From IMG/VR virus record IMGVR_UViG_3300025647_000002, positions 1-57,671 of that record: a DNA stretch of 57,671 nt, one strand, 5' to 3'. The notes beneath the pieces are model-generated. The model searched no databases and had not been told where the DNA came from. It saw nothing but the letters and a program-made list of their open reading frames with translations. Shown one piece after another: positions 11,486-55,869 of the stretch (positions are counted from its first letter, which is position 1; each line of letters starts with the position of its first letter). Both the position numbers and the translations under genes were made by a program. This stretch comes from a virus (Duplodnaviria; Caudoviricetes).

Positions 11486-14400
11486 TCGTTATACATACCG
11501 GTGTACGCCTCGATGTAGGGGCGTACACTCAGCGAAGTCGAGTTGATAAACCGTTCGCTTGCGAGTTGCTTTTGTGCCTTCAACGCCCGTTTCACCTTAG
11601 CCCGCATGTCGCCCATCTCCAGACCAGTACCGGCAGCATAGCGGTTCCACTCCGCGACACGGTCGTACAGGTACGCCACCTGCTCACGATCACCGCGGGC
11701 TTCGGCCTTCACAATCGCATCACGATACGCCGTGGTGTAGCTGCGCTGGTACTGCTCGCGGCGCATACCGACACGGACGACGTCGTATTCGGATGAAGCA
11801 CCCAGAGGGTACAACCCGAGTGCCCGCATGATGGCGACTCCGCTGTTGTAATCCTCGCTCACTACGTATCCGCGGCGATCCACGATGGCACCACTCCGCT
11901 CGTATGCGTACACGTCACCCAAGGCGCGCAGCATACTGATCGGAGACTCGCGGACTGTCTTTTCAATATCACCGGGCATACCGCCGGGCGCGAAGTCCAG
12001 TAGGTTCCCGATAGTCTTCATGCTGTTCGCAGCGAAGGAAGCCATTGGACCACCGACCTCTGTGATGACACGCGATGTCTCTGCACCCGGGAGGAACATT
12101 TCTGTACCGGGCACGATGTTGCCGAGGCCAGTACGCGAACCGACGTCGCTCCCAAGCATGTTGTTGAACGCACCGCTCATAAGTGCCGAGCCGAAGCCGG
12201 GCATGAACTCGTTGCCCTTGTCCACCATGTACTGCCTGATACTTGGTACTGGGATACCGAACTTGAACGCCAGTGTGTCGACAATATCCTCAATGTCTTC
12301 CGAGAACGGTACACCACGGAGGCCGGACAGCAGCAGGAGGCTGCCGAGCATGATGATCCGCCCGTTGTTATTGAGGTTTGCGATGAGTGTGGCACTGTTG
12401 ACGACGAACTGTTTGAACATGAACGCGAACTGCTGGATACCGCCGCGGAAGAACGCTGGCCGGTTGCCTGTCGTGTAGTCACCCAAGGTACTGTTTACCA
12501 GTGTCTCTGCAAAGGCAGCAGCATCCTTCGCTGCATCCACGTTGTTGGCACCAGCTGCTGTGCGGCGGCGGAACTCAAGGCGGAACGCGGCGAGTGCTGC
12601 TGCACGGCGCGAGTGTTGCTCCGTGGAGTTGAAGGGGGCCATGAAATACTGGACAAACGTCTGCTGCGCACCCGTTGTGACGCGGCCACGGGCTGACCCT
12701 GATAGGGAGTTGAACTGGGCCGCATCCAAGAACCCGCCCTCGATACCTTCGACAAGGAAGTCGGCCTCCGCACGTGTCATACCGCGCTTGGCGAGGTCGG
12801 CATCTGACATTTCCTCTTTGCTCCAGAACGCAGCTGTGTCCGCACCGGAGTTTGGCTTGAGGCTGAACCCAACCGAGAACGCAGCGTTCTTGATCTCGAC
12901 AAAAGCATCCCACCCGAAGCCGCCGCCGAATCCGTTCTTGGCATTGTAGGTAGCCAGTGCTGCAGGCACGTTGGTACCAAGGCCGACAAGGTTCAATGCA
13001 CCCGAGGCTACAGACCCCCCCAAGAACGACATGGCTGTCAACGTGCGTATAGCACCGACGGTTTTGCCGGATGCCATGTCTGTCTCCAGAACCTGCTTCT
13101 GCTGGTCCAAGAATGTCACGAGCTTGCGGAACTCGTTGTAGTGCTGGTTGCCCCGCTTTGGTGCTTCGTTGGTGACGAACCAGCTGTGGTACTGGTCAAA
13201 CTTGCGGCGGGCTTCCACCTTGGCTTCCTCGTTCATCGTCGTGTCAGTCAACGATGCCTCGTACTCAGCCTTCAGCGTGTTGTATTTCTCTTGACTACCC
13301 TTCCACAGCGCATCCGATTCCGGGTTGCTGCGGTCCAGTATGTTCGCCAGCTCCACGCTGGTTTTATTCCGCGCGATGGTAGATGCACGGGACTCGATGT
13401 GCTGCGAGATAGCCTGCGACAGATCGTTCTTCGCACCCGGTGCGAACGAAGCCTTCAGCTGGCGCAGTACGGAGAAGTCGTTCTGCGATGTGAGTGCGAG
13501 GATGATCTGCTCTGCCCGCGTCGGGTCGAGGTTGATACTGAAACGGCGCAGGAACCGCATCGCCTCGTTCATGTTGATCTCTGGGTCTGTCGACGCTGTC
13601 TGGATCACCGCTTCCGACTTGGATATGAGCCGCAGTTTCTTGAGCACGTTACCACCAAGGCCGTTGTTGGCCTTTGGGTCGAACACCTCGACCTCATGCG
13701 TACCCTCACCAAACAGTTCGGTCATGCTCGCCGCTGCCGTATCCGCCTCGCTCTGGGTCTCGAACTGCATGTACACAGTCTGGTCCCGATACCGGTCGGT
13801 CATAGCAAACTCAGTACCGTTCTCATCCACGGCCGCGATGCGTGCGTGCCAGCTACCCTCACGGGTGAACGGGACGTAGTTTGTCTCGATGTCACGGACG
13901 GCCTTGATCTCTGCGTCCCGCGTACTGATGAGTTCGTTGGCGAGGCTGCGCACTTCCTGCTGCACCACGAAACTCTCGGGTCCACGCTTCTCGTTGCCCT
14001 TTGGCTTCAACGGTGTGTACCGCGTACGGAAGTCGGTGATAGCTGCCTCAAGGTCAGCCCGCTCGTTTGTGTCAAAGAACGCTTTACCTCCAGCGCCTTC
14101 AGTCGCCGGGTCAAACAGCGCGTCGATGCGATCCGTACCTGTCCCTAGTAGCGCCTTGTTGACAGCAACCATGAGCGCTTCGGCACGGCGCATGTCGATG
14201 GAGCCACGCAGGCGGATACCATTCTCGTCAAACTCTGCATCACCGGTGGCCACATCCACGAACTTGTTGGTCAGCTTCTGCACCAGCTTGCGGTCACCAT
14301 CAGTCATCGGCGCATTCATCGCCCGCTGGATGCGTTTGTAGGTGGTGTCCTGCTCCTCGTTGTACCGGGTCAGTGTACTCTCCAGCAGGGCCACGGAAGT

Positions 14401-17400
14401 CTCAGCCATCGCATCCAGTTCGCCGTTGAAGCCGGCCCACTCTGCATCTGTGAAGTCGTGGGTGAATGTCTCGGTGTACATCCCGGTGTAGGAGTTGTCT
14501 TTGATCCGCTTGTCGTAAGACTTGGCGATCAGCTTGCCAGCCTCGGGGGTAGGGGCGGCTGCCACGGCAACGTCCCGCTCCGCTACCAGCTGTGCCCGCA
14601 TCTCTACAGTCAACGGCTTGGTCTGCGGCAGTTTGATCTCGATACCATCCCTGAACTGCTGCCGCGTCGGGCGGTTCTGCTTCAGCTTGGCGACGACATC
14701 CTTTTGCAGCTGGAACTCGCCGGAGGCCGCGATGTACTTAAATATCTTTGGCGGGTTTGGCTTCGCCTTGTACCCGACAGAACGCAGGATACGGGCAGCC
14801 TTCAGCGCCTTACCCACATCGCTTTTCTGCGCCTCGGTGAGACCATCCGAGAACTTTATCCCGAAGATTTCCACCGCTGGACGCAGTGTCTTTTTGCGGA
14901 GTACCTGCATCTGGTTGATATGTGTACGCGAGATATTGTACCGCCGGTTGATCGCACCCCAGACAAGACTACCACCCTCACTACGGATTGACCGCCACAG
15001 CGTGGGGGTAAACACCTGAGACTTGAGTGTGTCGTAGGCGTTCCCGAAGTCCACCTTGACCTTACGCTTTGCAAAGTCGTTGAGTATAGCCAGAGCGCCT
15101 TCGAGCTTCTTGGGTGTTGGACCGCCCGCGAGTTCGATCGTACGCCCCAGACCCAGCACGCTACCATCTGCGATGGAGGCGGCCGAGGCGAAACGCCCCG
15201 TACCGGTGGGCTCAATGCCCTGCTCAAGTGCCTGTGTCCTGCGACCCATCAGCTCTGCATCGAAGAACGTGGAGCGCTGACCGGTCACGACGTACCGGCG
15301 CGCTTGGCTGAGAAGGTAACGTGCCTGCTCGTCACCGAACCGTACGCCGATCTTGTTCAGCGCGTTCTTGACCTTGTTCCACCAGAGGGAAAGGATGTTG
15401 TTCTCAATGCGTGCAGCATAGTCAGACAGGTATTCTTCCGTCGCCTCGGCGCGGCTCATACCACGGGCTTCGACTGCCGAGTCGATGAGGGTGCGGGCCT
15501 CTGGTGTGCTGTTCTTGTAGACAGAGTTCATCACGCTGTCGAACTCAGCGTTACCCACGATCGCACGCATACCGAAGTGGCCCATTGTTTCGTGGGCAAG
15601 GACTGCGTTCAGGTGCCCGGTGTTCGCGATCCGGTTGGAGAAGACGATGACGGTGTCGCCGTCGAAGAAGTAGGCAGCTGCGTTGACTGTGTCGAAGTCA
15701 CCTTGCGGCCGCGCCGCGGTAGCGCGTGCGTAGAGCTTTGGGTTCTTGGTCCGCAGGTCCGCTTGGTCCTTGAACACGTGGGACTTTGGCTTAACGGCGA
15801 TGTTACGGAAGAACGACTTCACAGTAAGCTGCAACTTACCAACCGCCATGGGCTTCACGGGGTTCTTGTTCTCATCTGCGAGGCCGTTGAGCGTGTTGTA
15901 ATCTGCCAGCGATGTGCGGCCGGCTTGGACCTTGGTACCAAGGTCACGCCGCTCAATCCTACCTTTGACCACGTTGGGGAAACCTTTGGGTGTGACGTAA
16001 TCAAGGGCATCGCGGGGCTGGCCCTCCTTTGTCCCGTCCTTGATTATTTGCGTCAGCTGGACGAACGTGTCTTGTTCTGTGCGATTTGGCCGTTCGTTTC
16101 TTGTGTTTATCTCGGCTACCATACGCAGCAGTTCTACGGCTGCCACATCGGCCTTTGCTTCGGGGGTATTAGGGGCCCGCTGGCCGGACTGCGCACGCCA
16201 GCGGGCCTGCGCCATATCACTGATCTTAGAGAGTTGTTGGCTGGTCAGGTTTAGCTCTAAGGCGTTCTGAGCTGCCACCTTGGCCTCTGCCTTATCGCTT
16301 GCCTCGGCTATCTCTTCTGTACTGGGCTTCGCCTTGAGTTCTACGTCTGGAGCATTCGCAATGTTGTACAGCTCGATACCAGCGTTGATCTCGTCCGACG
16401 ACAAGGTCTTACGCTTCTTCGCACCGAGGATGTCTTGTTCAAGGTCAGCGACAAGCTCCATTTCGGGTGATAGCTCACCTACGGCGCGCTCTGCCTTCAG
16501 CGCTTCCATACTGACCTTCTTCGGTTTCTTCGGTTTCTCAGGCGCAAGTGTTTCCGGCGTCTGGTCTACTTCGGTTTCCGTTTCGGCTTCACCTTCTCCG
16601 GCAGTTTCTTGCCCTTTGGTGTCTTGGCCTGAAACTCCTTTGCCAGCTTTGGTTCCTTGGCGTAGAGCGCCCGCCTTTGGGCTTGGCTCTTGAACGGCAT
16701 CCTTCTTCCCTCTCTTGAGTTTATCCCCTTTGGGTGCAGTAGGTGGCGTGGGTGGTGTAGTATCCGGGGACAACGCCGCAAGTGCCTGCTCCTTGGTATC
16801 ACCAAGATACGTCGTCAGTTCACCAGCATCCATAACATCAAGGTTATGCCAGCCAGTGATATCCCCGGAACCTACTGTCCGGGCGATGCGTACGATCTCA
16901 CCATCGGGGGTAGCAACCTCATAGACTGTCAGCCCATCGGCGTCCTTCGTACCACGGGCGGATACGGACTGCGCTTTACCGGTCTTCGTGGCCTTTCTTA
17001 TTGCCTCACCGCGAGCCGCCGCTTTAGCTTGCGCAGCGAGGTCCACCTTGGCAGGCGCAGCTTTGGGCGTAGGCTCAGGTGCGCCGCGCCGCGCCGCCAG
17101 ATAGGCTTCGCCCTCCTCAAGTACACGGTCGCGCTGGACGTTAAGGCGTTGTCCGAGGGCCTGCAGATTTGCTGCCTGTCCCTGCAGCTGCTGGCGTTCT
17201 GCCTCAGCTGCGCGTGCGGCTTCGACCTGTTGGCGCATGGTATCTACGTCTGTCTTCGCTGGCGGCTCAGCCCCGCGTGTCGCCGGTGTGTCTACCAGCG
17301 GATCGGCTTTCCCCTTCGCGCTCTTCCTAAGACGCTGGAGCAGCTCGACATCTGCTTTCTCTGCGCGGACAGCGTTTATCCACTCCAGCTGTGACTTCTT

Positions 17401-19446
17401 ACTCAGCTTGGCGAATGTCGGCACGCCCTCTGGGTTTCTAACCAGCGCGCTCTCGTTACCCCATACAGCTAAGGCACCGAGGTAGTCGTTCGGTGTGACG
17501 TCTTCTGCACGCAGCGGTGCCCGCTGTGCTTCGCGCGCTGCCCGTACTTGTGCGGCCTGTTCTTGTTGTGCAGCCTGTCCTTGTTGGGCGGCCTGCTGTG
17601 CGGCCTGCTGTGCGGCCTGTGCCTGCTGCGCTTGGGCACGTGCCTGCTGCTGTTGCTGCAGACGATTCATCTGTTCAGCCATGGCAGTGGGCTGCGCACT
17701 GAGTTCCATCCGCTGCTGACCAGCGGCTTCCAGTTCAGCCTGTGATACAGGAGGTGCTGTGACCTCCGGGCGAGGGGCACCCGCCAGCTGTTGGCCTGTG
17801 AGCCGTGCCTGCGTGGCCACGTCAACACCCATCTCCGCGGGTGTGAACGCCTCGGCCTGTCCGGGCTCTGCGCGTTGCTGAGGCTGAAGTGTAAGCGGAG
17901 GCGGTGCCGGCGACCGAAGGTCCATAGAGAGTTGCGTCTCTGTTGGTGCCACGGGGGCAGGCTGCGGGCCTGCATATTCTCTATTAGGTGCTCGCTGTAC
18001 GGTGGGTATAAACAACCCCGGCTGCTCCTGACCGAAGTCAAAACCCAGCTGTGTGTCGCCGGAAGCCGCGGGTGCCACGGGTGCAGGCTGCTGTCCCATA
18101 TTCGGGTCGGTGCCCAGATCAGCCCCGGGGAACATCTCCGCCTGTGCGTTCGGCTCCAGCGATGCGCCGCTGAGCATGTTAGTCGGGTCACCGGAGTCGA
18201 CGTCACGGTTCGGTGTGGGCGGTTTGGCCTTTCCTTCAAAAGGTATGGAGGCAGCACGGAAGCCACCACCAAGCAAGAAGCCAGCGCCTGCGGCAACAAG
18301 CCCTTCTTCACCATACTTGTCGATGATAAGCGGCGCGAGCGCAGCCCAGTCAGCCTCGTTGAACTCGGCGCGGAGCTCTGGGTCAAACATAACGCGGTCA
18401 GTCAGGGTGGCGGTTGCCTCCGCAGCACCTTCCAAAGCACCAGCGCCTACAACGCGCCCGAGATTACCACGGAATGTGCGGCGAGCAGCGTCATCAACGG
18501 CGGTACCAAATGCGCGGCTGAAACCACCGGCAATGATCGCCTCTGGTACGGTCTGGATAACTGTCTTGAACAGCGCGGACCGCCAAATATCCTGCTGTAC
18601 CTCTGGTGAGCGTACGTCGGGCCCGCCTTGCTCGGCTGCCTGCTCCGCTGCCTGCCACGAGGACTGGAGTTCCATCGGGAAAATAGAAGTGGCGACACCG
18701 CCTAGTTGACCGGCGCGCGCAGCAGCCCCGCCTGCGGCAGCGGCCCGGAGGCCACCGGCCAAAAGAGCACCGCCACCGACGCCACTAGCGACCGACAAGC
18801 CGATCGTTGGGATACTGCGTGTGGCAGCTGTAAGGATTTTGCCGCCGATCCCTTGCTGCTTAGCGATCAATGCGTCACGTGCTTGGTCAGCAGCAGTTGG
18901 GCCGAGGAACTCGCCCGCACTCACAAGTGCCTGTCCCGCGCCTTCGGCCCCAAGCATCTGCAGACCACGGCCTGTACCGCCGACGACACCCTGACCCACA
19001 TCGCGAAAGCCCATTCCGACATTGCCAAAGAAGCCACGCCCTTCACCGATAGAGCTGAGGTACTGCTGGTACTGTGTAGGTGCAATACGCCGCCAGTCAG
19101 CGGCGTTCGCCGGCATGGGGTTAGGTGCTTCGAGGTTACCCGCGCTTTGTAGCGCGACATCATAATCCTCACGGCCAAACTCGACACCACCGACAGAAAA
19201 GCGGTCCATGCCCGGGCTATAGTAGATATCTCCGCCGGGACGCATAGACGATTCTGGTGGAGGTTGGATACGCGGTGCTTCCGGGGCCCCAAGTCCTGTA
19301 ATACGATCCAGCGCCTGTTGGCGCTGGACTTCTACATCCGCAAGGCCGGACCGCACGCCGCCGACGCCCATCTCCGGCAAGTTGCTATATAGATCAGAAC
19401 GTGGCGTTTGTAGTCCAGCGCCGTACCGAAGATTTTGGTCTGCCAT
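11482..19446 (-). CDS. Giant internal virion/ejection (large polyvalent-type) protein
   Basis: 2654 aa, last gene of the late arm; zincin-like LAHETMGHFG; PLxRFG-like YVPFTREG; C-terminal FMFKQF region typical of phage polyvalent proteins. Confidence 0.75.
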   Translation of the reverse strand: MADQNLRYGAGLQTPRSDLYSNLPEMGVGGVRSGLADVEVQRQQALDRITGLGAPEAPRIQPPPESSMRPGGDIYYSPGMDRFSVGGVEFGREDYDVALQSAGNLEAPNPMPANAADWRRIAPTQYQQYLSSIGEGRGFFGNVGMGFRDVGQGVVGGTGRGLQMLGAEGAGQALVSAGEFLGPTAADQARDALIAKQQGIGGKILTAATRSIPTIGLSVASGVGGGALLAGGLRAAAAGGAAARAGQLGGVATSIFPMELQSSWQAAEQAAEQGGPDVRSPEVQQDIWRSALFKTVIQTVPEAIIAGGFSRAFGTAVDDAARRTFRGNLGRVVGAGALEGAAEATATLTDRVMFDPELRAEFNEADWAALAPLIIDKYGEEGLVAAGAGFLLGGGFRAASIPFEGKAKPPTPNRDVDSGDPTNMLSGASLEPNAQAEMFPGADLGTDPNMGQQPAPVAPAASGDTQLGFDFGQEQPGLFIPTVQRAPNREYAGPQPAPVAPTETQLSMDLRSPAPPPLTLQPQQRAEPGQAEAFTPAEMGVDVATQARLTGQQLAGAPRPEVTAPPVSQAELEAAGQQRMELSAQPTAMAEQMNRLQQQQQARAQAQQAQAAQQAAQQAAQQGQAAQQEQAAQVRAAREAQRAPLRAEDVTPNDYLGALAVWGNESALVRNPEGVPTFAKLSKKSQLEWINAVRAEKADVELLQRLRKSAKGKADPLVDTPATRGAEPPAKTDVDTMRQQVEAARAAEAERQQLQGQAANLQALGQRLNVQRDRVLEEGEAYLAARRGAPEPTPKAAPAKVDLAAQAKAAARGEAIRKATKTGKAQSVSARGTKDADGLTVYEVATPDGEIVRIARTVGSGDITGWHNLDVMDAGELTTYLGDTKEQALAALSPDTTPPTPPTAPKGDKLKRGKKDAVQEPSPKAGALRQGTKAGKGVSGQDTKGQETAGEGEAETETEVDQTPETLAPEKPKKPKKVSMEALKAERAVGELSPEMELVADLEQDILGAKKRKTLSSDEINAGIELYNIANAPDVELKAKPSTEEIAEASDKAEAKVAAQNALELNLTSQQLSKISDMAQARWRAQSGQRAPNTPEAKADVAAVELLRMVAEINTRNERPNRTEQDTFVQLTQIIKDGTKEGQPRDALDYVTPKGFPNVVKGRIERRDLGTKVQAGRTSLADYNTLNGLADENKNPVKPMAVGKLQLTVKSFFRNIAVKPKSHVFKDQADLRTKNPKLYARATAARPQGDFDTVNAAAYFFDGDTVIVFSNRIANTGHLNAVLAHETMGHFGMRAIVGNAEFDSVMNSVYKNSTPEARTLIDSAVEARGMSRAEATEEYLSDYAARIENNILSLWWNKVKNALNKIGVRFGDEQARYLLSQARRYVVTGQRSTFFDAELMGRRTQALEQGIEPTGTGRFASAASIADGSVLGLGRTIELAGGPTPKKLEGALAILNDFAKRKVKVDFGNAYDTLKSQVFTPTLWRSIRSEGGSLVWGAINRRYNISRTHINQMQVLRKKTLRPAVEIFGIKFSDGLTEAQKSDVGKALKAARILRSVGYKAKPNPPKIFKYIAASGEFQLQKDVVAKLKQNRPTRQQFRDGIEIKLPQTKPLTVEMRAQLVAERDVAVAAAPTPEAGKLIAKSYDKRIKDNSYTGMYTETFTHDFTDAEWAGFNGELDAMAETSVALLESTLTRYNEEQDTTYKRIQRAMNAPMTDGDRKLVQKLTNKFVDVATGDAEFDENGIRLRGSIDMRRAEALMVAVNKALLGTGTDRIDALFDPATEGAGGKAFFDTNERADLEAAITDFRTRYTPLKPKGNEKRGPESFVVQQEVRSLANELISTRDAEIKAVRDIETNYVPFTREGSWHARIAAVDENGTEFAMTDRYRDQTVYMQFETQSEADTAAASMTELFGEGTHEVEVFDPKANNGLGGNVLKKLRLISKSEAVIQTASTDPEINMNEAMRFLRRFSINLDPTRAEQIILALTSQNDFSVLRQLKASFAPGAKNDLSQAISQHIESRASTIARNKTSVELANILDRSNPESDALWKGSQEKYNTLKAEYEASLTDTTMNEEAKVEARRKFDQYHSWFVTNEAPKRGNQHYNEFRKLVTFLDQQKQVLETDMASGKTVGAIRTLTAMSFLGGSVASGALNLVGLGTNVPAALATYNAKNGFGGGFGWDAFVEIKNAAFSVGFSLKPNSGADTAAFWSKEEMSDADLAKRGMTRAEADFLVEGIEGGFLDAAQFNSLSGSARGRVTTGAQQTFVQYFMAPFNSTEQHSRRAAALAAFRLEFRRRTAAGANNVDAAKDAAAFAETLVNSTLGDYTTGNRPAFFRGGIQQFAFMFKQFVVNSATLIANLNNNGRIIMLGSLLLLSGLRGVPFSEDIEDIVDTLAFKFGIPVPSIRQYMVDKGNEFMPGFGSALMSGAFNNMLGSDVGSRTGLGNIVPGTEMFLPGAETSRVITEVGGPMASFAANSMKTIGNLLDFAPGGMPGDIEKTVRESPISMLRALGDVYAYERSGAIVDRRGYVVSEDYNSGVAIMRALGLYPLGASSEYDVVRVGMRREQYQRSYTTAYRDAIVKAEARGDREQVAYLYDRVAEWNRYAAGTGLEMGDMRAKVKRALKAQKQLASERFINSTSLSVRPYIEAYTGMYND
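16566..16700 (-). CDS. Overprinted 44-aa basic protein in the +1 frame of the giant gene
   Basis: MPFKSQAQRRALYAKEPKLAKEFQAKTPKGKKLPEKVKPKRKPK, preceded by purine-rich GAGAGGGAAGAAGG. Confidence 0.6.
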   Translation of the reverse strand: MPFKSQAQRRALYAKEPKLAKEFQAKTPKGKKLPEKVKPKRKPK

Positions 19447-49804: not shown

Positions 49805-49810
49805 CCACCG

Positions 49811-49844
49811 ACCCGTCCAGTGAAAGCTGGGCGGGTTTTCTTTT
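49811..49844 (+). terminator. Intrinsic terminator
   Basis: ACCCGTCCAG-TGAAAG-CTGGGCGGGT followed by TTTCTTTT. Confidence 0.85.
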
Positions 49845-49929
49845 GTCCGCATGTCAGTGCTTGATGGCTGTTAGGTTCTGAAGATTAGGTTCTCGTCGTT
49901 CCTCCTCGCATACGTCGGGGGGAGTAGGA

Positions 49930-50480
49930 GTATACACGCGGCATAATTGAATAAGTCGAGGGGATTAGGTGTATACTTACCCTGTAAACCGTAACTATAC
50001 AGTGTGTAAAGTGTATACTTTAGAAAATACCTTGTAACCTGTTGAAAACAAACAACTATCTAACTTTACATATCGTTATATAGCGGGTTTTAGGTCTAAG
50101 TTAACATGTAAACCGGGTAAGTTAACGCGTTAAGTATACCAGCAAGTGCCTGTAAAATAAGGGAAAAGTACCAAGGGGTAGTGTAAACCAAGGGTATATA
50201 TATATGTATACTATCTAAATATCTATCTATCTATGTTTTTACCCTTTTCCTATGTCGATTTCCTGTTGGTGAGTAACTCACTACACGTCGAAAAACATAG
50301 CCGCTCTAACGCGAAAACATAGATAGTTAGATAGTTGCAGCAATATCAATGACTTAGCCTGATGTAAACTTAGATAGTTCTAATGATATCAATGACTTAC
50401 GATAGATAGATAAATAGATAGTTGTGGTGTATACTTGGCTCACACTTACGAAAAAACTCAATGGAATCAAGGGCTTAGCC
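49930..50480. other. AT-rich repeat-laden non-coding region (candidate replication origin or genome-end region)
   Basis: No credible ORF; CTATCT/AGATAG repeats, IHF-like boxes, 12 GTWWAC sites and a (TA)n tract. Confidence 0.6.
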
Positions 50481-50486
50481 CGAAAC

Positions 50487-50515
50487 TTGACACGGCCCGA
50501 GCCCCATGCTAGGTT
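50487..50515 (+). promoter_or_regulatory. Sigma70-like promoter for the second early operon
   Basis: TTGACA-17 nt-TAGGTT with TG one base upstream of the -10. Confidence 0.5.
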
Positions 50516-50588
50516 GGCTTCGCCGATCGGGTCTGGCAAGCCTGATTGGTAATAATATATAACTTAACACATACCAAAGGGGGGACCT

Positions 50589-50927
50589 ATGTCCACCAAG
50601 CAAATGTTCTCGTTCAATAACTTGACACAAGACACACCAACTGAGGTGGTAGACACACCAAAGTGGACACACCTTGCTGATTACTACAACCCAAATGAGT
50701 TCCGTATACTGTCTATCCGACCTCGACGGCGGACCTACCTACGTCAGTCCGATGCTGGTTACGACTGGTGTGCTGGCCACGGTTTCATCGTAACTTCACA
50801 GTCCAGCCCCTACTGCGGACAAGTTGTGGCTATCGACGAGACACGTCACCTCAAGGACATCGGCTACACTCATGTCCACATTCACTACAACCTCGACACC
50901 CCACCACTCAAGCTGGAGCTACGCTAA
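50589..50927 (+). CDS. Hypothetical protein
   Basis: 112 aa after AAGGGGGG; TAATG coupling. Confidence 0.6.
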   Translation: MSTKQMFSFNNLTQDTPTEVVDTPKWTHLADYYNPNEFRILSIRPRRRTYLRQSDAGYDWCAGHGFIVTSQSSPYCGQVVAIDETRHLKDIGYTHVHIHYNLDTPPLKLELR

Positions 50928-51265
50928 TGATTTCTTCCACTACTGAACAGCAAATCCGTAATGAGTGGCAGCGTAAGGCTGACCACATCAACCAAGGTTT
51001 CACTATCGAGATCGACGAGTACAGTCTCGAACAGACAGCTAACGTGTTGGCTGTTATCAACCCCGGTCGTTCTAGTGCCGACCACATACGAGACATGGTC
51101 AGGGCTAACATGTGGGACGGTACTACGTCCCTCGGTACTGCTGGTTGGGAAGCCGCTGGTTTCTTCCCTGACCATAATCCCAACACCATGGTCGTGAGAC
51201 TGTCTGTCTCTGCCTACTCAGTCGCCAAGTATCTCGAAGCACAAGCCAACAAGGAGAGCAACTAA
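50927..51265 (+). CDS. Hypothetical protein
   Basis: Start MISSTT at 50927 after GGAG; coupled on both sides. Confidence 0.65.
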   Translation: MISSTTEQQIRNEWQRKADHINQGFTIEIDEYSLEQTANVLAVINPGRSSADHIRDMVRANMWDGTTSLGTAGWEAAGFFPDHNPNTMVVRLSVSAYSVAKYLEAQANKESN

Positions 51266-52074
51266 TGTTCGGAGCTAACATTGAACTTCCCAACCGTATC
51301 CTCAGCTACAAGTCGGCCCTCGACAAGTACAACGCTATCAAACCGATCCGTGGTCGTTCTACGGATGTTCGTCCTCTGGCGAGGCGATCTAACGACAACC
51401 TGACTATACGTCAGGACCCTACCACTGGTGACGTTACCATAAAACTCTACCAGACCGACATCATCACTTACGACGCCGACGGTGATGGGTACAACAACCA
51501 CATCGAGATCAACCCTTACGCTTCTGTCATGACCAACAGGGTGATGTGGTCGATCCTTGGGCCTCATGTAAACACCCACTGGACAGACCGATACCAAGCC
51601 CCAAACCATATCACTGAAGTGGGTGGTCGGTACTATAACACCCCAGAGTTCGTCACTGTGGCTCCCAAAGAGACAGGTTGGGAGATCATTGCTGGTGATA
51701 GACCCATCGAGGTGTCCTACCTGAACCGTAAAGTGGGACGCCAAGCCCTACGTGATGCCAACTACTATACGTTCAAGCTGTGGTTGGAGACACGGATCAG
51801 ACTGGGACTGTGTGAGTTTGGCCACCGCTGGGGTTCCAACCCCTATGACTGGTCACCACGGGAAGCTATGGGCTACCTGACAGCAGGTGAGAAGGACTGG
51901 TCCGAGATCAGCAAGCGTATGTCTAACAGTGTCCCTATAGAGGCCGAGCTGCGTAGCCTACGGGAAGCCGTATACAAGTCCGAGCTGTGCTACGACACCG
52001 AGACTGTGTCGTACTTCGACGGCTACAACGCCTTCTCCAACGCTATGAACCAGATCAAACGGGTGGGTCGCTGA
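51265..52074 (+). CDS. Hypothetical protein
   Basis: 269 aa; KPIRGRS.DVRPL.RR and LYQTDII motifs; AAGGAG SD. Confidence 0.7.
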   Translation: MFGANIELPNRILSYKSALDKYNAIKPIRGRSTDVRPLARRSNDNLTIRQDPTTGDVTIKLYQTDIITYDADGDGYNNHIEINPYASVMTNRVMWSILGPHVNTHWTDRYQAPNHITEVGGRYYNTPEFVTVAPKETGWEIIAGDRPIEVSYLNRKVGRQALRDANYYTFKLWLETRIRLGLCEFGHRWGSNPYDWSPREAMGYLTAGEKDWSEISKRMSNSVPIEAELRSLREAVYKSELCYDTETVSYFDGYNAFSNAMNQIKRVGR

Positions 52075-52217
52075 TGTTCGGGCCTTATAGAGAATACGCC
52101 ATATACAAGACCTACACCGACGGTCGACGCCCTGTCTGTATCAAGAAGTATGTGACACTGGAGTATGCCCACTCGTGGTGTTCGACCCGTGAGGGATACA
52201 CTTGGGGTCGCTACTGA
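52074..52217 (+). CDS. Small hypothetical protein
   Basis: 47 aa from a TGATG overlap; ends immediately before the ribozyme. Confidence 0.5.
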   Translation: MFGPYREYAIYKTYTDGRRPVCIKKYVTLEYAHSWCSTREGYTWGRY

Positions 52218-52219
52218 AC

Positions 52220-52288
52220 GTCGAAACAGGCTGCCCAGTGCGGCCTGTCTGTCATGGGTGGCTCCCATGACACTGATGAGACAAGCCA
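52220..52288 (+). ncRNA. Type II hammerhead ribozyme with pseudoknot
   Basis: GAAA 52223-52226; stem III; GUC cleavage triplet 52247-52249; 9-bp stem I; CUGAUGA 52273-52279; stem II GUC/GAC; loop I UGGCU complementary to AGCCA at 52284-52288. Confidence 0.88.
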
Positions 52289-52310
52289 ACAACACAAGGA
52301 AATTGCTACT

Positions 52311-53300
52311 ATGAGAGCATCACTTCTGAACACCACACTCCAAGCCCTTATCAACGTCGGTCGATCCGTCGCTATTGAGGGTGCTCCCGGCGGTGGTAAG
52401 ACGACCATTGTCCACGAGGTGGCCGAGGCTATGGGACTGCCCGTTGTGGAACGGCACATGCCGACCATGCTGGTCGAGGACTTCGGTATCCCCTACCCAA
52501 CTGACGCTGGGTTCGAGTACAAGCTGCCCGACTGGTTCCCACTCAAGGGCAAGGCCGGCACCGAGAACGGTGGTGTCCTACTGTTCGACGACCGGAACCA
52601 AGCCAATGCCGATCTACAGAAGGTGCTGGCCAACATCCAGCAAGCCAGAACGCTACATGGCAAGCCGTTGGCCGATGGGTGGACCGTCGTGTCAACTGGT
52701 AACAGACAGTCCGACCGTGCTGGTGCCAACCGTGTCCTGTCCCACCTTCGTAACCGTGAGACAGTGCTTGAGTTCGAGACGCACCTCGACGACAGCACAC
52801 AGTGGATGATCGACAACGGCGTACGTTCAGAGGTCATTGCCTTTACACGGTTCCGCCCCAACCTGCTCCACGACTTCGACCCACAGCGTGACGTCAACCC
52901 GACACCACGGTCATGGGTCGAGGGTGTATCCGCGATACTTGGCAAGGTGCCAGCCGAGGCAGAGTACGAATGCTTCAAGGGTGCCATTGGCGAGGGTGCT
53001 GCGGCAGAGTTCTTGGGGTTCATACGTATCTACCGCAAGCTGCCCAACCCCGATGCTATCCTGATGAACCCAACCACGGCAGACGTACCGACTGATCCTG
53101 CTACGCTCTACGCCCTGTCCGGTGCCATCGCCGAGCGGGCTACAGAGGGTAACATGGAGCGGGTTGTGACCTACACCAGCCGTATGCCAGCCGAGTTCTC
53201 TGTGCTCAGCATCTCACATGCTCTCCGCAAGACACCCGAGTTGGCCAACACAGCGGCCTTCACAAGCTGGGCAGTGAAGCACCAAGATGTACTGTTCTAG
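52311..53300 (+). CDS. MoxR/CbbQ-like AAA+ ATPase
   Basis: Start MRASLL after AAGGA; Walker A GAPGGGKT; LLFDD; TGNRQSDRAG; LRNR; PTPRSW. Confidence 0.88.
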   Translation: MRASLLNTTLQALINVGRSVAIEGAPGGGKTTIVHEVAEAMGLPVVERHMPTMLVEDFGIPYPTDAGFEYKLPDWFPLKGKAGTENGGVLLFDDRNQANADLQKVLANIQQARTLHGKPLADGWTVVSTGNRQSDRAGANRVLSHLRNRETVLEFETHLDDSTQWMIDNGVRSEVIAFTRFRPNLLHDFDPQRDVNPTPRSWVEGVSAILGKVPAEAEYECFKGAIGEGAAAEFLGFIRIYRKLPNPDAILMNPTTADVPTDPATLYALSGAIAERATEGNMERVVTYTSRMPAEFSVLSISHALRKTPELANTAAFTSWAVKHQDVLF

Positions 53301-53378
53301 GTCTTGTTATTACGACAGGACCTCTACCCACTGGCATTAGGTCAGTGGGTACACCAACACTCAATAAGGATTTACGAG

Positions 53379-54242
53379 ATGAAACTATCTGACCGCGCAC
53401 TGCTAGTGCAGCTGAACATATCCACATGGTCTGCCAACAAGCTGGACAAGGAGATCAGCACCGAGACTACCCGTAACAAGGGTGCTATCTCCGGCTCCGT
53501 CCGATCCCACAAGAGCCTGCTGCCGATGTGTGACCTACTGGATGATATCAAGAAGAAAGCCGGCCTGATCCGCCAGCAGTTCTACGACAACACCCTGCCA
53601 TGGGGTGTCAAGGGTATCCAAATCCTGCCGACTGCCAACTACCTCGCCTTCATGACCGAGTTCCGCAAGGAGAAGTCTGACTACGAGGCGCTGGTCCGGC
53701 AGTTTGTACCGGCTTACCCCCAACTGGTGCAGGATGCACAGCGGTTCCTTGGTACAGCGTACAAGGTCGACGACTACCCTGACGTAAGTGAGATCGGTAG
53801 CAAGTTCAAGATGGACCTTGGTGTCATGCCAGTGCCCAACAACGACTTCCGTGTGGACATTGCTGATGCCGAACTGGAGCGTATCCAAGAGGAGGTCGAG
53901 GCCCGTGTAAAGCAGGCCTCAACTGGTGCTATGCAAGAGGTATGGCAGCGGCTCTACGACAAGGTGGTCCACATGGCAGACCGTATGGCCAAGCTGGACG
54001 ACCCCAAAGCACGGTTCCACGAGAGCACATTGGATAACATCACCGACCTGTGTGACCTGCTGCCACGGCTCAACGTCATGGACGATCCGAACCTTGAGGC
54101 TATGCGCCAAGAGGTCGAGGGCAAGCTGTCCGGACTGAGCAAGGACAGCGTGGTACAGAGCCCCACGTTCCGGCAGACTAAGATCGACGAGGCAAACGAC
54201 ATCGCTGCCAAGATGGCAGCGTTCATGGGAGGACTGAAGTGA
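53379..54242 (+). CDS. Conserved phage protein (DUF3150-like) of the AAA/vWA module
   Basis: Start MKLSDRALLV after AAGGA; TLPW...ILP, DDYP and LNVMDDP motifs. Confidence 0.7.
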   Translation: MKLSDRALLVQLNISTWSANKLDKEISTETTRNKGAISGSVRSHKSLLPMCDLLDDIKKKAGLIRQQFYDNTLPWGVKGIQILPTANYLAFMTEFRKEKSDYEALVRQFVPAYPQLVQDAQRFLGTAYKVDDYPDVSEIGSKFKMDLGVMPVPNNDFRVDIADAELERIQEEVEARVKQASTGAMQEVWQRLYDKVVHMADRMAKLDDPKARFHESTLDNITDLCDLLPRLNVMDDPNLEAMRQEVEGKLSGLSKDSVVQSPTFRQTKIDEANDIAAKMAAFMGGLK

Positions 54243-54463
54243 CACGACGTGTCGGAGAGATATTCATATTACCCTTGGCATATAGCACTGGGTACTACGA
54301 AGCAAAGAACGGAGAGACACCCCTTTGTTGGGGTGTCTACCGTAAGGGTGACGGGTTTACGGAGAGCGTGAACGAACACACCCTGAGCAAACCAACCACG
54401 TCCAAATACAACACAGAAGTAGAGGCCATTGCGGCTGCTGCAAGAGCAAGACTGAAAGGATAG
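54239..54463 (+). CDS. Hypothetical protein
   Basis: GTG start overlapping the upstream stop; GGAGG SD. Confidence 0.5.
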   Translation: MTRRVGEIFILPLAYSTGYYEAKNGETPLCWGVYRKGDGFTESVNEHTLSKPTTSKYNTEVEAIAAAARARLKG

Positions 54464-54466
54464 ACT

Positions 54467-55576
54467 ATGGACCTTATGAAACGACTGAGCAAAGCCAAGA
54501 CCAGCCTGATCTTGGAACACCCCTTCATTGGCAGCGTGGCACTCAACATGCCCATGTCACTGAGCGACGAGGTGCCCACCGCTGCGACCAACGGCAAGCG
54601 GGTGCTGTACAATCCCGACTTCATCGAGCCGCTCACTGACGAGGAACTCAAGTTCCTTGTGGCCCACGAGTGCCTACACCCCATGCTAGAGCACAACTAT
54701 CGACGGGGTGCTCGTGACCCCAAGAAGTGGAACAAGGCAGCGGACTACGTCATCAACCAGCTGCTTGTCGACGAGGGTATCGGCAAGTTCATCGAGGGTG
54801 GCTGCCTTGACCAGACCATCTACAACAACGGCGGCGGCACCAGCGATGGTATCTACAACCTGCTGCCTGATGGCGAGGGTGACGGTGACAGTGACGCCCC
54901 CGGTGGACCCGGTAACGACCTTGAGGATGGCGAAGGTGGCCAAGCAGAGCAGGCGCAAGAGGCTGCCGAGTGGAAGATCAAGGTGGCCCAAGCTGCACAG
55001 GCTGCCAAGATGATGGGCAAACTGAGCGCCAACATGGCACGGCTTGTCGACGAGGTACTCAAGCCCAAGGTGGACTGGCGTGACAGACTGCGCCAGTTCG
55101 TGCAGAAGGCCAAGAACGACCAGCGTACCTTCGCAAGACCCAACCGCCGGTTCCTGTCACAAGGGCTCTACATGCCGACCATCACCGGCGAGGTGCTGGG
55201 TGAGATGGTATTCGCCGTGGATATGTCTGGGTCTATCCAACAGGACGAGTGCAACCAGTATTCGGCCGAGTGTCGTATCGTCCACGAGGATGGCAAGCCC
55301 TACAAGCTGCACCTTATCTACTTCAGCCACGAGGTATGTGCCCACGACACGCTGTCACGGGACGACGAGTTCGAGTTCAACCCCCGTGGCGGTGGCGGTA
55401 CTGCCTTCAGCCCTGTGTTCAAGCACATCGAGGAGCAGGGCATCGAGCCTGCTGGTATCGTGTTCCTCACTGACCTGTACTGCAACGACTTCGGTGACGC
55501 ACCTGACTGCCCTGTGCTTTGGGTGTCAACGGGTGCAGACCAAGCACCCTTCGGTGAAGTGGTGGTGATGGAATGA
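54467..55576 (+). CDS. Metallopeptidase-like (HExxH) plus vWA domain protein (DUF2201 type)
   Basis: TAATNG, AHECLHPMLEH, WNKAADYVIN, MIDAS motif DMSGS, GGGGTAF and FLTDLY. Confidence 0.88.
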   Translation: MDLMKRLSKAKTSLILEHPFIGSVALNMPMSLSDEVPTAATNGKRVLYNPDFIEPLTDEELKFLVAHECLHPMLEHNYRRGARDPKKWNKAADYVINQLLVDEGIGKFIEGGCLDQTIYNNGGGTSDGIYNLLPDGEGDGDSDAPGGPGNDLEDGEGGQAEQAQEAAEWKIKVAQAAQAAKMMGKLSANMARLVDEVLKPKVDWRDRLRQFVQKAKNDQRTFARPNRRFLSQGLYMPTITGEVLGEMVFAVDMSGSIQQDECNQYSAECRIVHEDGKPYKLHLIYFSHEVCAHDTLSRDDEFEFNPRGGGGTAFSPVFKHIEEQGIEPAGIVFLTDLYCNDFGDAPDCPVLWVSTGADQAPFGEVVVME

Positions 55577-55869
55577 CAGACCTACTCATCATGACGGCGG
55601 CCCTCGTGGCCGCCATTATATGGACCATATACTTACAACGTGTTGTGAGCAGGCTCACAAAGAGATCGGTCAGCATAAACAGGCGGCTTAACTCCGCCCG
55701 TCTGACACTCGCCGAAGTAAGGGATGAGGTAGACTACTACCTTGAGGAGAACCAAACACTCAAGGACATATTAACGGACGTAGCAAAGGGAGAAGTACAT
55801 GTCTGGATCGGAGAAGATGGCCTCGTCAGAGCGGTGCGAAAGCCTGCTGGAGAGACACCGATACATTAA
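55573..55869 (+). CDS. Hypothetical membrane-anchored coiled-coil protein
   Basis: N-terminal transmembrane helix; ATGA overlap. Confidence 0.6.
   Translation: MTDLLIMTAALVAAIIWTIYLQRVVSRLTKRSVSINRRLNSARLTLAEVRDEVDYYLEENQTLKDILTDVAKGEVHVWIGEDGLVRAVRKPAGETPIH

What the first reader, a model, noticed from the sequence alone, without database searches (positions are those of the whole stretch)
52220..52288. Self-cleaving type II hammerhead ribozyme in the leader of the AAA-ATPase/vWA operon
Seen: a complete catalytic core in type II order. GUC(52220-22), GAAA, stem III (52226-34 with 52240-48), cleavage-site C52249 in GUC, perfect 9-bp stem I (52250-58 with 52264-72), CUGAUGA (52273-79), then GAC closing a 3-bp stem II. 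Loop I UGGCU can pair with AGCCA (52284-88). It fills the gap between a stop at 52217 and the SD of the ATPase (ATG 52311). Established: pseudoknotted type II hammerheads occur in bacterial and phage intergenic regions, with largely unknown function. Inference: cleavage frees the downstream operon mRNA with a 5'-OH, hairpin-capped end about 60 nt before the start codon, giving protein-independent control of this module.
Basis: partly seen in the sequence, partly recalled or inferred. Interest (0 to 1): 0.82.

Follow-up and report, generated by a model that had tools for sequence, protein, structure and literature searches.

The report
Type II hammerhead ribozyme between phage genes
The flagged 70 bases are a genuine, evolutionarily conserved self-cutting hammerhead RNA of an already described type, sitting between two genes of an uncultured aquatic phage, where it most likely cuts a long message just ahead of an ATPase gene.

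Summary
Window 52219-52290 (+) matches Rfam Hammerhead_II (RF02276) at 41.0 bits, above the gathering score of 37 (E 5.6e-5). It is the only copy in this complete 57.7-kb phage genome.

I fetched 80 related viral loci. My own covariance model found 33 copies in the window plus 20 of those loci, all on the ATPase strand. They give 24 distinct sequences, all with an intact catalytic core. 97.6% of pair cells form standard pairs, against 26-42% when partners are slid. 13 of 20 pairs change on both sides, including two in the loop I/3'-tail pseudoknot.

The interpretation needs two corrections:
- **Not a primary leader.** The element is an intercistronic insert, packed between the stop codon of a 48-codon ORF (2 nt away) and the ATPase Shine-Dalgarno.
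- **Not tied to the AAA/vWA module.** 10 of 19 close relatives have it right before the ATPase, but 0 of 61 more distant loci with the same module do. Relatives carry 0-3 copies, often flanking an unknown 269-aa gene.

Perreault et al. 2011 already described pseudoknotted type II hammerheads flanking prophage genes, and this scan has reported similar cases on other DNA. This is a new member of a known kind. Cleavage is untested.

The parts
52219..52290 (+). Whole type II hammerhead ribozyme as matched by Rfam RF02276 (model positions 1-66 of 66)
   Evidence: 41.0 bits, gathering score 37, E 5.6e-5; per-genome E 1.4e-8; own model R1 scores 77.6 bits at 52217-52293.
52220..52222 (+). 5' strand of the open stem II (GUC); pairs with 52280-52282
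   Evidence: Sequence. helix 1: 100% of cells paired in 24 distinct copies; the middle pair is U-A x17, A-U x3, C-G x3, U-G x1.
52223..52225 (+). Core G12 A13 A14
   Evidence: GAA is invariant in all 24 distinct copies.
52226..52248 (+). Stem III hairpin (9 bp with one U-G wobble, loop CCAGU); its outer pair is A15.1-U16.1
   Evidence: stem III is 6-12 bp with quite different sequences among copies, and always starts A...U.
52249..52249 (+). C17, the predicted cleavage site (cut between 52249 and 52250)
   Evidence: Position in the hammerhead consensus. H17 is C in 23 and A in 1 of 24 copies, never G. Cleavage itself was not tested.
52250..52272 (+). Stem I hairpin (9 perfect bp, loop UGGCU 52259-63)
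   Evidence: helix 3: all 9 pairs change on both sides among copies; 98.1% of cells paired.
52273..52279 (+). Core CUGAUGA (C3-A9)
   Evidence: It reads CUGAUGA or CUGACGA in all 24 copies; only position N7 varies.
52280..52282 (+). 3' strand of stem II (GAC)
52284..52288 (+). 3' tail AGCCA, which forms a 5-bp pseudoknot with loop I (52259-63)
   Evidence: helix 4: 93.9% of cells paired; two pairs change on both sides (C-G to U-A in 3 copies, U-A to C-G in 2). This matches the tertiary contact described in Perreault 2011 (passages read).
52071..52217 (+). Upstream 48-codon ORF; its stop codon ends 2 nt before stem II
   Evidence: No family hit, and tblastn found no homologue in the 80 loci, so it may not be a real gene.
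52297..52302 (+). Shine-Dalgarno-like AAGGAA of the ATPase gene, 8 nt after the pseudoknot tail
   Evidence: It is only weakly paired in the folds.
52311..53300 (+). AAA+ (AAA_5, MoxR-like) ATPase gene, the first gene after the cut
   Evidence: PF07728; phrog_1297, E 9.6e-68; about 31% identity to phage N4 gp24. Homologues align from residue 1, which supports the ATG at 52311.

Best explanation
This is a functional type II hammerhead ribozyme, transcribed as part of a long rightward early/replication-module message of an uncultured double-stranded DNA phage.

Its active fold consists of stems I and III capped by loops, a 3-bp open stem II, and a 5-bp pseudoknot between loop I and the 3' tail. 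In that fold it cuts itself between C52249 and U52250.

- The upstream RNA (small genes 50589-52217) then ends 32 nt after its last stop codon, in the stem III hairpin, with a 2',3'-cyclic phosphate.
- The downstream RNA (ATPase, DUF3150-like, metallopeptidase-vWA and onward) begins with a 5'-OH at the foot of the stem I hairpin, 61 nt before the ATG, with the ribosome-binding site left free.

The likely effect is to uncouple the stability and translation of the two halves of the polycistronic message. This resembles what engineered ribozyme insulators do.

Shown here: motif, structure, conservation, covariation and placement. Inferred: cleavage, end chemistry and the effect on expression.
For: - **Family match.** Rfam RF02276 scores over its gathering score. 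It is the only such match in the genome.
- **Homologous copies.** 33 copies were found in the window plus 20 of 80 related loci, all on the coding strand. All 24 distinct sequences keep every core nucleotide while stems I, II and III differ.
- **Covariation.** 97.6% of pair cells are standard pairs, against 26-42% for slid partners. 13 of 20 pairs change on both sides. 0 of 500 shuffles reach the observed covariation score.
- **Placement.** I examined 24 copies from 16 sources, after dropping five loci with identical copies. In 23 of 24 the upstream ORF's stop codon ends -2 to +4 nt from stem II. In all 24 the next ORF starts 4-20 nt after the model's 3' end, with a GGAG/AAGGA-type site right after the tail. 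This tight stop-ribozyme-SD packaging fits an mRNA processing site.
- **Folding.** Stems I and III persist when 211 nt of context are folded, and the SD is not strongly sequestered.
- **Literature.** Perreault 2011 (PMC3088659, passages read) showed that pseudoknotted type II hammerheads cleave fast in vitro, and proposed that clustered phage copies process long transcripts into single-gene or operon-length mRNAs. The 2019 review PMC6765202 (passages read) repeats this as the leading but unproven idea. The title of PMC6206723 says the ribozyme insulator RiboJ increases expression of insulated genes; I saw only the search listing and the start of its abstract.
Against: - No cleavage assay and no RNA data exist for this element. 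Function rests on homology and covariation only.
- The Rfam score is only 4 bits over the cut-off. Of the 27 copies my model found in L002-L021, 12 did not reach the Rfam gathering score, although their cores are intact.
- My model and the alignment used for pair counting were fitted to the proposed structure, which inflates pairing percentages somewhat.
- Presence is patchy. Three of 19 close loci show none in the fetched DNA, though two of those have under 900 nt upstream and one of them shows a sub-threshold hit elsewhere in its genome. 57 of 61 distant loci show none. The ATPase module therefore works without it, and the benefit may be small.
- The promoter and terminator scan covers only sigma-70-type signals. 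An unrecognised phage promoter just upstream cannot be excluded.
Confidence: 0.6

Rival explanations
1. Translation-gated rather than constitutive cutting. The upstream stop codon lies 0-4 nt from stem II, so a terminating ribosome would cover and unfold stem II, the GAA core and part of stem III. The ribozyme could then cut only on messages whose upstream ORF is not being translated, or before the first ribosome arrives. This would make the cut a read-out of upstream translation.
For:: the gap between stop codon and stem II is -2 to +4 nt in 23 of 24 distinct copies. In three of them the stop codon overlaps the first stem II nucleotide(s). This spacing is conserved across three different intergenic slots. 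Perreault 2011 raises regulated cleavage for phage hammerheads as a possibility (passage).
Against: Tight packing is also what genome economy alone would give in a phage. Hammerheads with this pseudoknot cleave at more than 1 per minute in vitro (Perreault 2011) and could act co-transcriptionally before ribosomes matter. I have no data on kinetics here.
Confidence: 0.15
2. A nearly neutral or selfish insert: a ribozyme cassette that spreads among intergenic gaps by recombination and is tolerated, with no useful effect on the ATPase module.
For: Copy number varies from 0 to 3 among genomes that are otherwise collinear. The slot used differs among close relatives. Stems look mosaic between copies: L016 1419-1490 has the stem III of the slot-A copies and the stem I of the slot-B copies. 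57 of 61 distant loci lack it.
Against: All 33 copies are on the transcribed strand, and all lie in one roughly 2.7-kb stretch upstream of the ATPase, even in five whole genomes searched. All cores are intact with abundant compensatory change, which means selection keeps the copies catalytically competent. The placement relative to stop codon and SD is precise.
Confidence: 0.12
3. Excision and end-joining. In relatives, where two hammerheads flank the 269-aa gene, the released RNA carries a 5'-OH and a 2',3'-cyclic phosphate. It could be ligated into a circle by the ribozyme's reverse reaction or by a host RtcB-type ligase. The single copy in this window would then be a remnant of such a pair.
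For:: the 269-aa gene has a hammerhead directly before it and another after it in six distinct locus groups (L002, L004/9/10, L005/6, L008, L016, L019). Perreault 2011 mentions spliced or circular products as a possibility.
Against: The same paper reports that no such product was detected. This window has one copy and no remnant of a second; the next best hit scores 11.8 bits. Type II topology leaves both ribozyme halves on different products.
Confidence: 0.05
4. A chance resemblance with no catalytic ability.
For: The Rfam score is only 4 bits above the gathering score, and no experiment has been done.
Against: E is 5.6e-5 for the window. 24 distinct homologues have an invariant core and covarying stems. 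The 14 control genomes give no hit.
Confidence: 0.03

Closest known systems
Type II hammerhead ribozymes of bacteria and prophages (Rfam RF02276; Perreault et al. 2011, PMC3088659)
   Same: It has the same core and the same circular permutation: loops on stems I and III, and a short open stem II of 3 bp here. The paper notes stem II is commonly as short as 2 bp. It has the same tertiary contact, a pseudoknot of at least 4 bp between loop I and the nucleotides just 3' of stem II. The loop (UGG) and tail (AGCC) letters match those of the Rfam consensus. It also lies in a phage intergenic position.
   Different: Nothing structural differs. Stem III is longer than in the Rfam consensus (9 bp against 6), which costs score. 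The host phage lineage is an uncultured aquatic phage of about 57 kb with direct terminal repeats, PolA, an SNF2 helicase and an SU10-like portal. I have not seen this lineage named in the passages I read. I could not see the paper's supplementary alignments, so I cannot say whether metagenomic relatives of this copy are already in them.
Clustered hammerheads flanking single genes or short gene blocks in prophages (Perreault et al. 2011, Figure 3 legend and text)
   Same: Relatives of this phage carry 2-3 copies that bracket single genes. The gene identities are not constant, as the paper says.
   Different: This window itself has a single copy. In this clade the copies occupy three recurring slots in one gene string (before the 165-aa gene, before the 269-aa gene, and before the ATPase) and nowhere else in the genome.
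HHphage of haloviruses HF1/HF2 (Perreault et al. 2011 discussion)
   Same: [quoted passage not shown] There, a mapped 5' end lies within 3 nt of the cleavage site.
   Different: HHphage is a core variant with insertions from a high-salt archaeal virus. This one has a canonical core, a bacterial-type SD, and a different topology and pseudoknot.
Engineered ribozyme insulator RiboJ (PMC6206723; only title and start of abstract seen)
   Same: This is a working analogy, not homology: a self-cleaving hammerhead placed just before a ribosome-binding site, leaving a 5'-OH and a hairpin-bearing 5' end and changing expression of the downstream gene.
   Different: RiboJ is synthetic, derived from a plant satellite RNA hammerhead (recalled, not from a call), and sits in a true 5' leader. 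The element here is natural and intercistronic.

Membership tests
Hammerhead ribozyme, type II (Rfam RF02276) | Conserved catalytic core: C3 U4 G5 A6 N7 G8 A9, G12 A13 A14, the A15.1-U16.1 pair, and H17 (not G) at the cleavage site | tested here: met
   CUGAUGA 52273-79, GAA 52223-25, A52226-U52248, C52249. The core is the same in all 24 distinct homologues.
Hammerhead ribozyme, type II (Rfam RF02276) | Three helices around the core, supported by covariation | tested here: met
   97.6% of cells paired and 13 of 20 pairs change on both sides; slid controls give 26-42% paired. Only the three outer pairs of stem III could be counted, because the alignment does not register its inner pairs. One search shows each copy's stem III is self-complementary (6-12 bp).
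Hammerhead ribozyme, type II (Rfam RF02276) | Type II permutation: stems I and III closed by loops, with the 5' and 3' ends in stem II | tested here: met
   hairpins at 52226-48 and 52250-72; stem II is formed by 52220-22 with 52280-82.
Hammerhead ribozyme, type II (Rfam RF02276) | Tertiary contact: a pseudoknot of at least 4 bp between loop I and the 3' tail | tested here: met
   UGGCU 52259-63 pairs with AGCCA 52284-88 (5 bp). helix 4: 93.9% paired, with compensatory C-G to U-A in 3 copies.
Hammerhead ribozyme, type II (Rfam RF02276) | Covariance-model score at or above the curated gathering score | tested here: met
   41.0 bits against 37.
Hammerhead ribozyme, type II (Rfam RF02276) | Site-specific self-cleavage giving a 2',3'-cyclic phosphate and a 5'-OH | not testable with these tools
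   This needs an in vitro or in vivo assay. No RNA run holds this DNA.
Clustered gene-flanking hammerheads of phages (Perreault 2011) | Two or more hammerheads close together that bracket a gene or short gene block | tested here: not met
   The window has one copy only. The feature is met in relatives: 9 of 80 loci have 2-3 copies, for example L016 with three around the 165-aa and 269-aa gene homologues.

The most novel reading that the evidence does not exclude
The conserved packing of upstream stop codon, ribozyme and downstream ribosome-binding site may make this family a translation-sensing processing switch. The stop codon lies -2 to +4 nt from stem II in 23 of 24 copies, and the SD follows directly after the pseudoknot tail. 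A ribosome finishing the upstream gene would melt stem II and the core, so the message is cut only when upstream translation lapses or before it begins. The phage would then toggle between a coupled polycistronic message and independent, end-protected single-gene messages. No such coupling between a terminating ribosome and a natural hammerhead was mentioned in the passages I read. I did not run a dedicated literature search for it.
Probability: 0.12. Interest if true: 0.6.

Novelty: new member of a known kind. Interest (0 to 1): 0.25.

Why it matters
What bacterial and phage hammerheads are for is still open (review PMC6765202). This case does not answer that question. It does offer a clean comparative set for testing the mRNA-processing idea. 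The set consists of collinear phage genomes with 0, 1, 2 or 3 copies in three fixed intergenic slots. All copies have intact cores, strong covariation and a fixed geometry relative to the stop codon and the ribosome-binding site. For annotation, it also shows that the ATG at 52254 inside stem I is not the ATPase start, and that the 93-nt gap is an RNA gene.

Tried and rejected
- **DNA search of cultured phages.** blastn of 51200-55600 against the 'phages' collection found nothing, so no cultured close relative was available. The protein search gives only about 31% identity to N4-like ATPases.
- **Other RNA families.** I looked for other ribozyme classes or RNA families in the window at E<=1 and in 40 related loci at gathering score. 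Only Hammerhead_II appeared. L042-L081 were not scanned with Rfam, only with my own model.
- **Degenerate remnants of further copies.** Searching the window with filters off found none; the next best hit scores 11.8 bits.
- **First regex scan.** The scan for the core was too loose, with many spurious hits, and I replaced it with covariance models.
- **RNA evidence.** No RNA holder was listed among the 24 runs returned, so I did not use read laying. No statement on expression is made.
- **The 269-aa gene that relatives flank with ribozymes.** It has no Pfam or PHROG family. In the protein atlas it only resembles viral hypothetical proteins, with one weak lead of PF23790 on 11% of one cluster. 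Its function remains unknown.
- **tRNA genes.** None were found.
- **MFE 'stem' across the core.** The minimum-energy fold pairs CGUCG with UGAUG across the core. I rejected this as an artefact of energy models that do not know the hammerhead core.
- **Supplements.** They may already contain metagenomic relatives of this copy.

Full report
**The observation**

I read 52100-52400.
- stem II: GUC 52220-22 with GAC 52280-82
- GAA 52223-25
- a 9-bp stem III (52226-34 with 52240-48), whose outer pair is the conserved A15.1-U16.1
- C52249 as the cleavage-site nucleotide
- a perfect 9-bp stem I (52250-58 with 52264-72) with loop UGGCU
- CUGAUGA 52273-79
- a tail AGCCA 52284-88 complementary to loop I

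The upstream ORF stops at 52215-17. The ATPase ATG is at 52311, behind AAGGAA at 52297-302.

- Rfam Hammerhead_II (RF02276) matches 52219-52290 on the + strand over the whole model at 41.0 bits (gathering score 37, E 5.6e-5). It is the only family over its cut-off in the 57,671-base window.
- At E<=1 the only other line is a 25.7-bit match to an unrelated sRNA family, far below that family's cut-off.
- The window is a complete virus record with direct terminal repeats. The per-genome E-value is 1.4e-8, and 14 control genomes give no hit.
- The region folds better than 199 of 200 shuffles (z = -2.95).

**Relatives**

The ATPase protein found 158 confirmed stretches in IMG/VR, and the best 80 were kept as loci L002-L081 (68-93% identity).

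- Rfam at gathering score found 15 Hammerhead_II matches in L002-L021 and one in L022-L041. No other ribozyme class appeared.
- I built a covariance model from 11 of these sequences and searched the window plus all 80 loci (640,314 bases, both strands).
- This gave 33 matches at E<=1. All are on the + strand, which is the ATPase strand. 32 have E<=7e-6, and one is weak (L044, 22.5 bits).
- Of the 27 matches in L002-L021, 12 had not reached the Rfam gathering score. They tend to have long stem III hairpins.
- The 33 matches are 24 distinct sequences. All 24 have CUGAYGA, GAA, the A...U frame of stem III and a non-G cleavage nucleotide (C in 23, A in 1). Stems I, II and III differ freely.

**Covariation**

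I counted pairs on the model-fitted alignment with the pseudoknot written in.

| Measure | Result |
|---|---|
| Cells forming standard pairs | 97.6% of 460 (26-42% when 3' partners are slid by 1-3 columns) |
| Pairs changing on both sides | 13 of 20 |
| Stem I pairs changing on both sides | 9 of 9 |
| Stem II middle pair | U-A, A-U, C-G or U-G |
| Pseudoknot pairs changing on both sides | 2 of 5 (C-G to U-A in three copies) |
| Shuffles reaching the observed covariation score | 0 of 500 |

Two caveats apply. The alignment was fitted to this structure. Only the three outer pairs of stem III are in register in it. For the inner pairs I rely on the per-sequence parse.

**Placement**

The + strand block runs from about 48.9 kb through the end of the record and on to about 11.5 kb. 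It holds PolA, an SNF2 helicase and a DUF927 protein. The - strand holds the terminase, an SU10-like portal and a 2654-aa protein.

A strong terminator-like hairpin lies at 49810-49837 (+), followed by about 740 nt without long ORFs and a promoter-like site at 50407-50435. The scan found no promoter-like or + strand terminator-like site between there and the ATPase. That scan covers sigma-70-type signals only.

The ribozyme therefore lies about 1.8 kb into a co-directional gene string, after ORFs 50589-50927, 50768-51265, 51265-52074 and 52071-52217. It is intercistronic, not the leader of a primary transcript.

**Linkage test**

By tblastn mapping of the window's genes onto the loci, the copies occupy three recurring slots:
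- before the homologue of the 165-aa gene: L005/6, L016
- directly before the 269-aa gene: L002, L004/9/10, L005/6, L008, L011, L016, L017, L019
- after the 269-aa gene and before the ATPase: the window, L004/9/10, L007, L008, L014, L015, L016, L019, L045

In L005/6 and L002/3 the last copy lies 207 and 836 nt before the ATPase, with extra ORFs between.

| Group of loci | With at least one copy | With a copy directly before the ATPase |
|---|---|---|
| Close (ATPase at least 81% identical), 19 loci | 16 | 10 |
| More distant, 61 loci (51 with at least 1000 nt upstream) | 4, each 1.4-2.7 kb upstream | 0 |

The distant loci keep the ATPase/DUF3150-like/vWA order.

13 of 14 loci with a homologue of the 269-aa gene have a copy. 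So do 6 of 53 loci that lack that homologue but have at least 1500 nt upstream. This contrast is confounded with relatedness.

In five whole relatives' genomes the Rfam family hits 1, 3, 1 (32.7 bits, below the cut-off), 1 and 0 times. Every hit is in the stretch upstream of the ATPase.

The window itself has one copy and no remnant of another; the next best hit with filters off scores 11.8 bits.

**Fine geometry**

I examined the 24 distinct copies from 16 sources. The duplicate loci L003, L006, L009, L010 and L017 were dropped.
- The stop codon of the upstream ORF ends -2 to +4 nt from the first stem II nucleotide in 23 of 24 copies. In L007 the gap is 10 nt.
- The next ORF's start codon lies 4-20 nt after the model's 3' end.
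- A GGAG/AAGGA-type site sits directly behind the pseudoknot tail.
- In the window, the folds of the post-cleavage leader and of a 211-nt pre-cleavage stretch keep stems I and III and leave the SD weakly paired.

**Mechanism**

- Shown: a conserved, covarying, canonical type II hammerhead that exactly fills intercistronic gaps on the transcribed strand.
- Inferred from the known chemistry of the class: self-cleavage after C52249. This gives an upstream RNA that ends in the stem III hairpin with a cyclic phosphate, and a downstream RNA that starts with a 5'-OH at the stem I hairpin, 61 nt before the ATPase ATG.
- Inferred further: this uncouples the stability and translation of the small upstream genes from the ATPase/vWA/replication genes.

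The idea is the one proposed for clustered phage hammerheads by Perreault et al. 2011 (passages read). The 2019 review still lists it as unproven.

The rivals I considered are translation-gated cutting, a tolerated selfish insert, excision and circularisation in two-copy relatives, and chance. Each is weighed in its own section of this report.

**Comparison with what is known**

Perreault et al. 2011 describe each of these features:
- the type II architecture
- the loop I/3'-tail pseudoknot of four or more pairs, and its necessity for fast cleavage
- stem II as short as two pairs
- multiple copies flanking individual genes in prophages, with inconstant gene identities

This element meets all sequence-level membership criteria. 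Only catalysis is untested. Earlier follow-ups in this scan report similar single copies and arrays in other phages, so the scan has found this kind before on other DNA.

What is specific here is modest: a previously unannotated copy in an uncultured aquatic phage lineage, and a three-slot pattern confined to one gene string.

**Verdict**

- Observation: confirmed.
- Interpretation: partly supported. It is a real ribozyme and the cleavage product is as described. It is not a primary leader and is not specifically linked to the AAA/vWA module.
- Novelty: new member of a known kind.
- Interest: 0.25.

Noticed in passing
L002-L019 and L045 (e.g. L016:1014-2401, L005:2181-3794, L004:3012-3990): Close relatives carry 2-3 hammerheads. 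In six distinct locus groups the homologue of the window's 269-aa gene (51265-52074; no Pfam or PHROG family) has a ribozyme directly before it and another after it. In this clade the ribozymes track this gene string more closely than they track the ATPase.
   Followed up: partly
L016:1419-1490 compared with L016:1014-1085, L005:2581-2659 and L019:3678-3749: The stems look mosaic between copies. One copy combines the stem III of the slot-A copies with the stem I of the slot-B copies, which suggests recombination or conversion among ribozyme copies.
   Followed up: no
window 49810-50589: A 12-bp terminator-like hairpin with a T run (49810-49837, + strand) is followed by about 740 nt without long ORFs and a promoter-like site at 50407-50435. 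This is probably the start of the transcription unit that contains the ribozyme, or an origin or control region.
   Followed up: no
window 54467-55576: The DUF2201_N plus DUF2201 (metallopeptidase plus vWA-like) protein matches phrog_1314 at E 3.7e-101. That family is labelled 'HNH endonuclease', which disagrees with the Pfam domains and looks like a mislabel in the library.
   Followed up: no
window 52311-53300: The ATPase is about 31% identical to gp24 of phage N4 and its relatives over 91% of its length. The listed ORF start at ATG 52254 lies inside ribozyme stem I and is not supported by homologues, which align from the ATG at 52311.
   Followed up: partly
window 11482-19446 (- strand): The 2654-aa ORF has no Pfam family at E<=0.001. 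Given the N4-like ATPase, a giant virion protein is a natural thought, but I found no evidence for it.
   Followed up: no
window 52071-52217: The 48-codon ORF between the 269-aa gene and the ribozyme overlaps the previous stop in an ATGA arrangement. It has no homologue in any of the 80 loci by tblastn. Relatives have other small ORFs or none at this place.
   Followed up: partly
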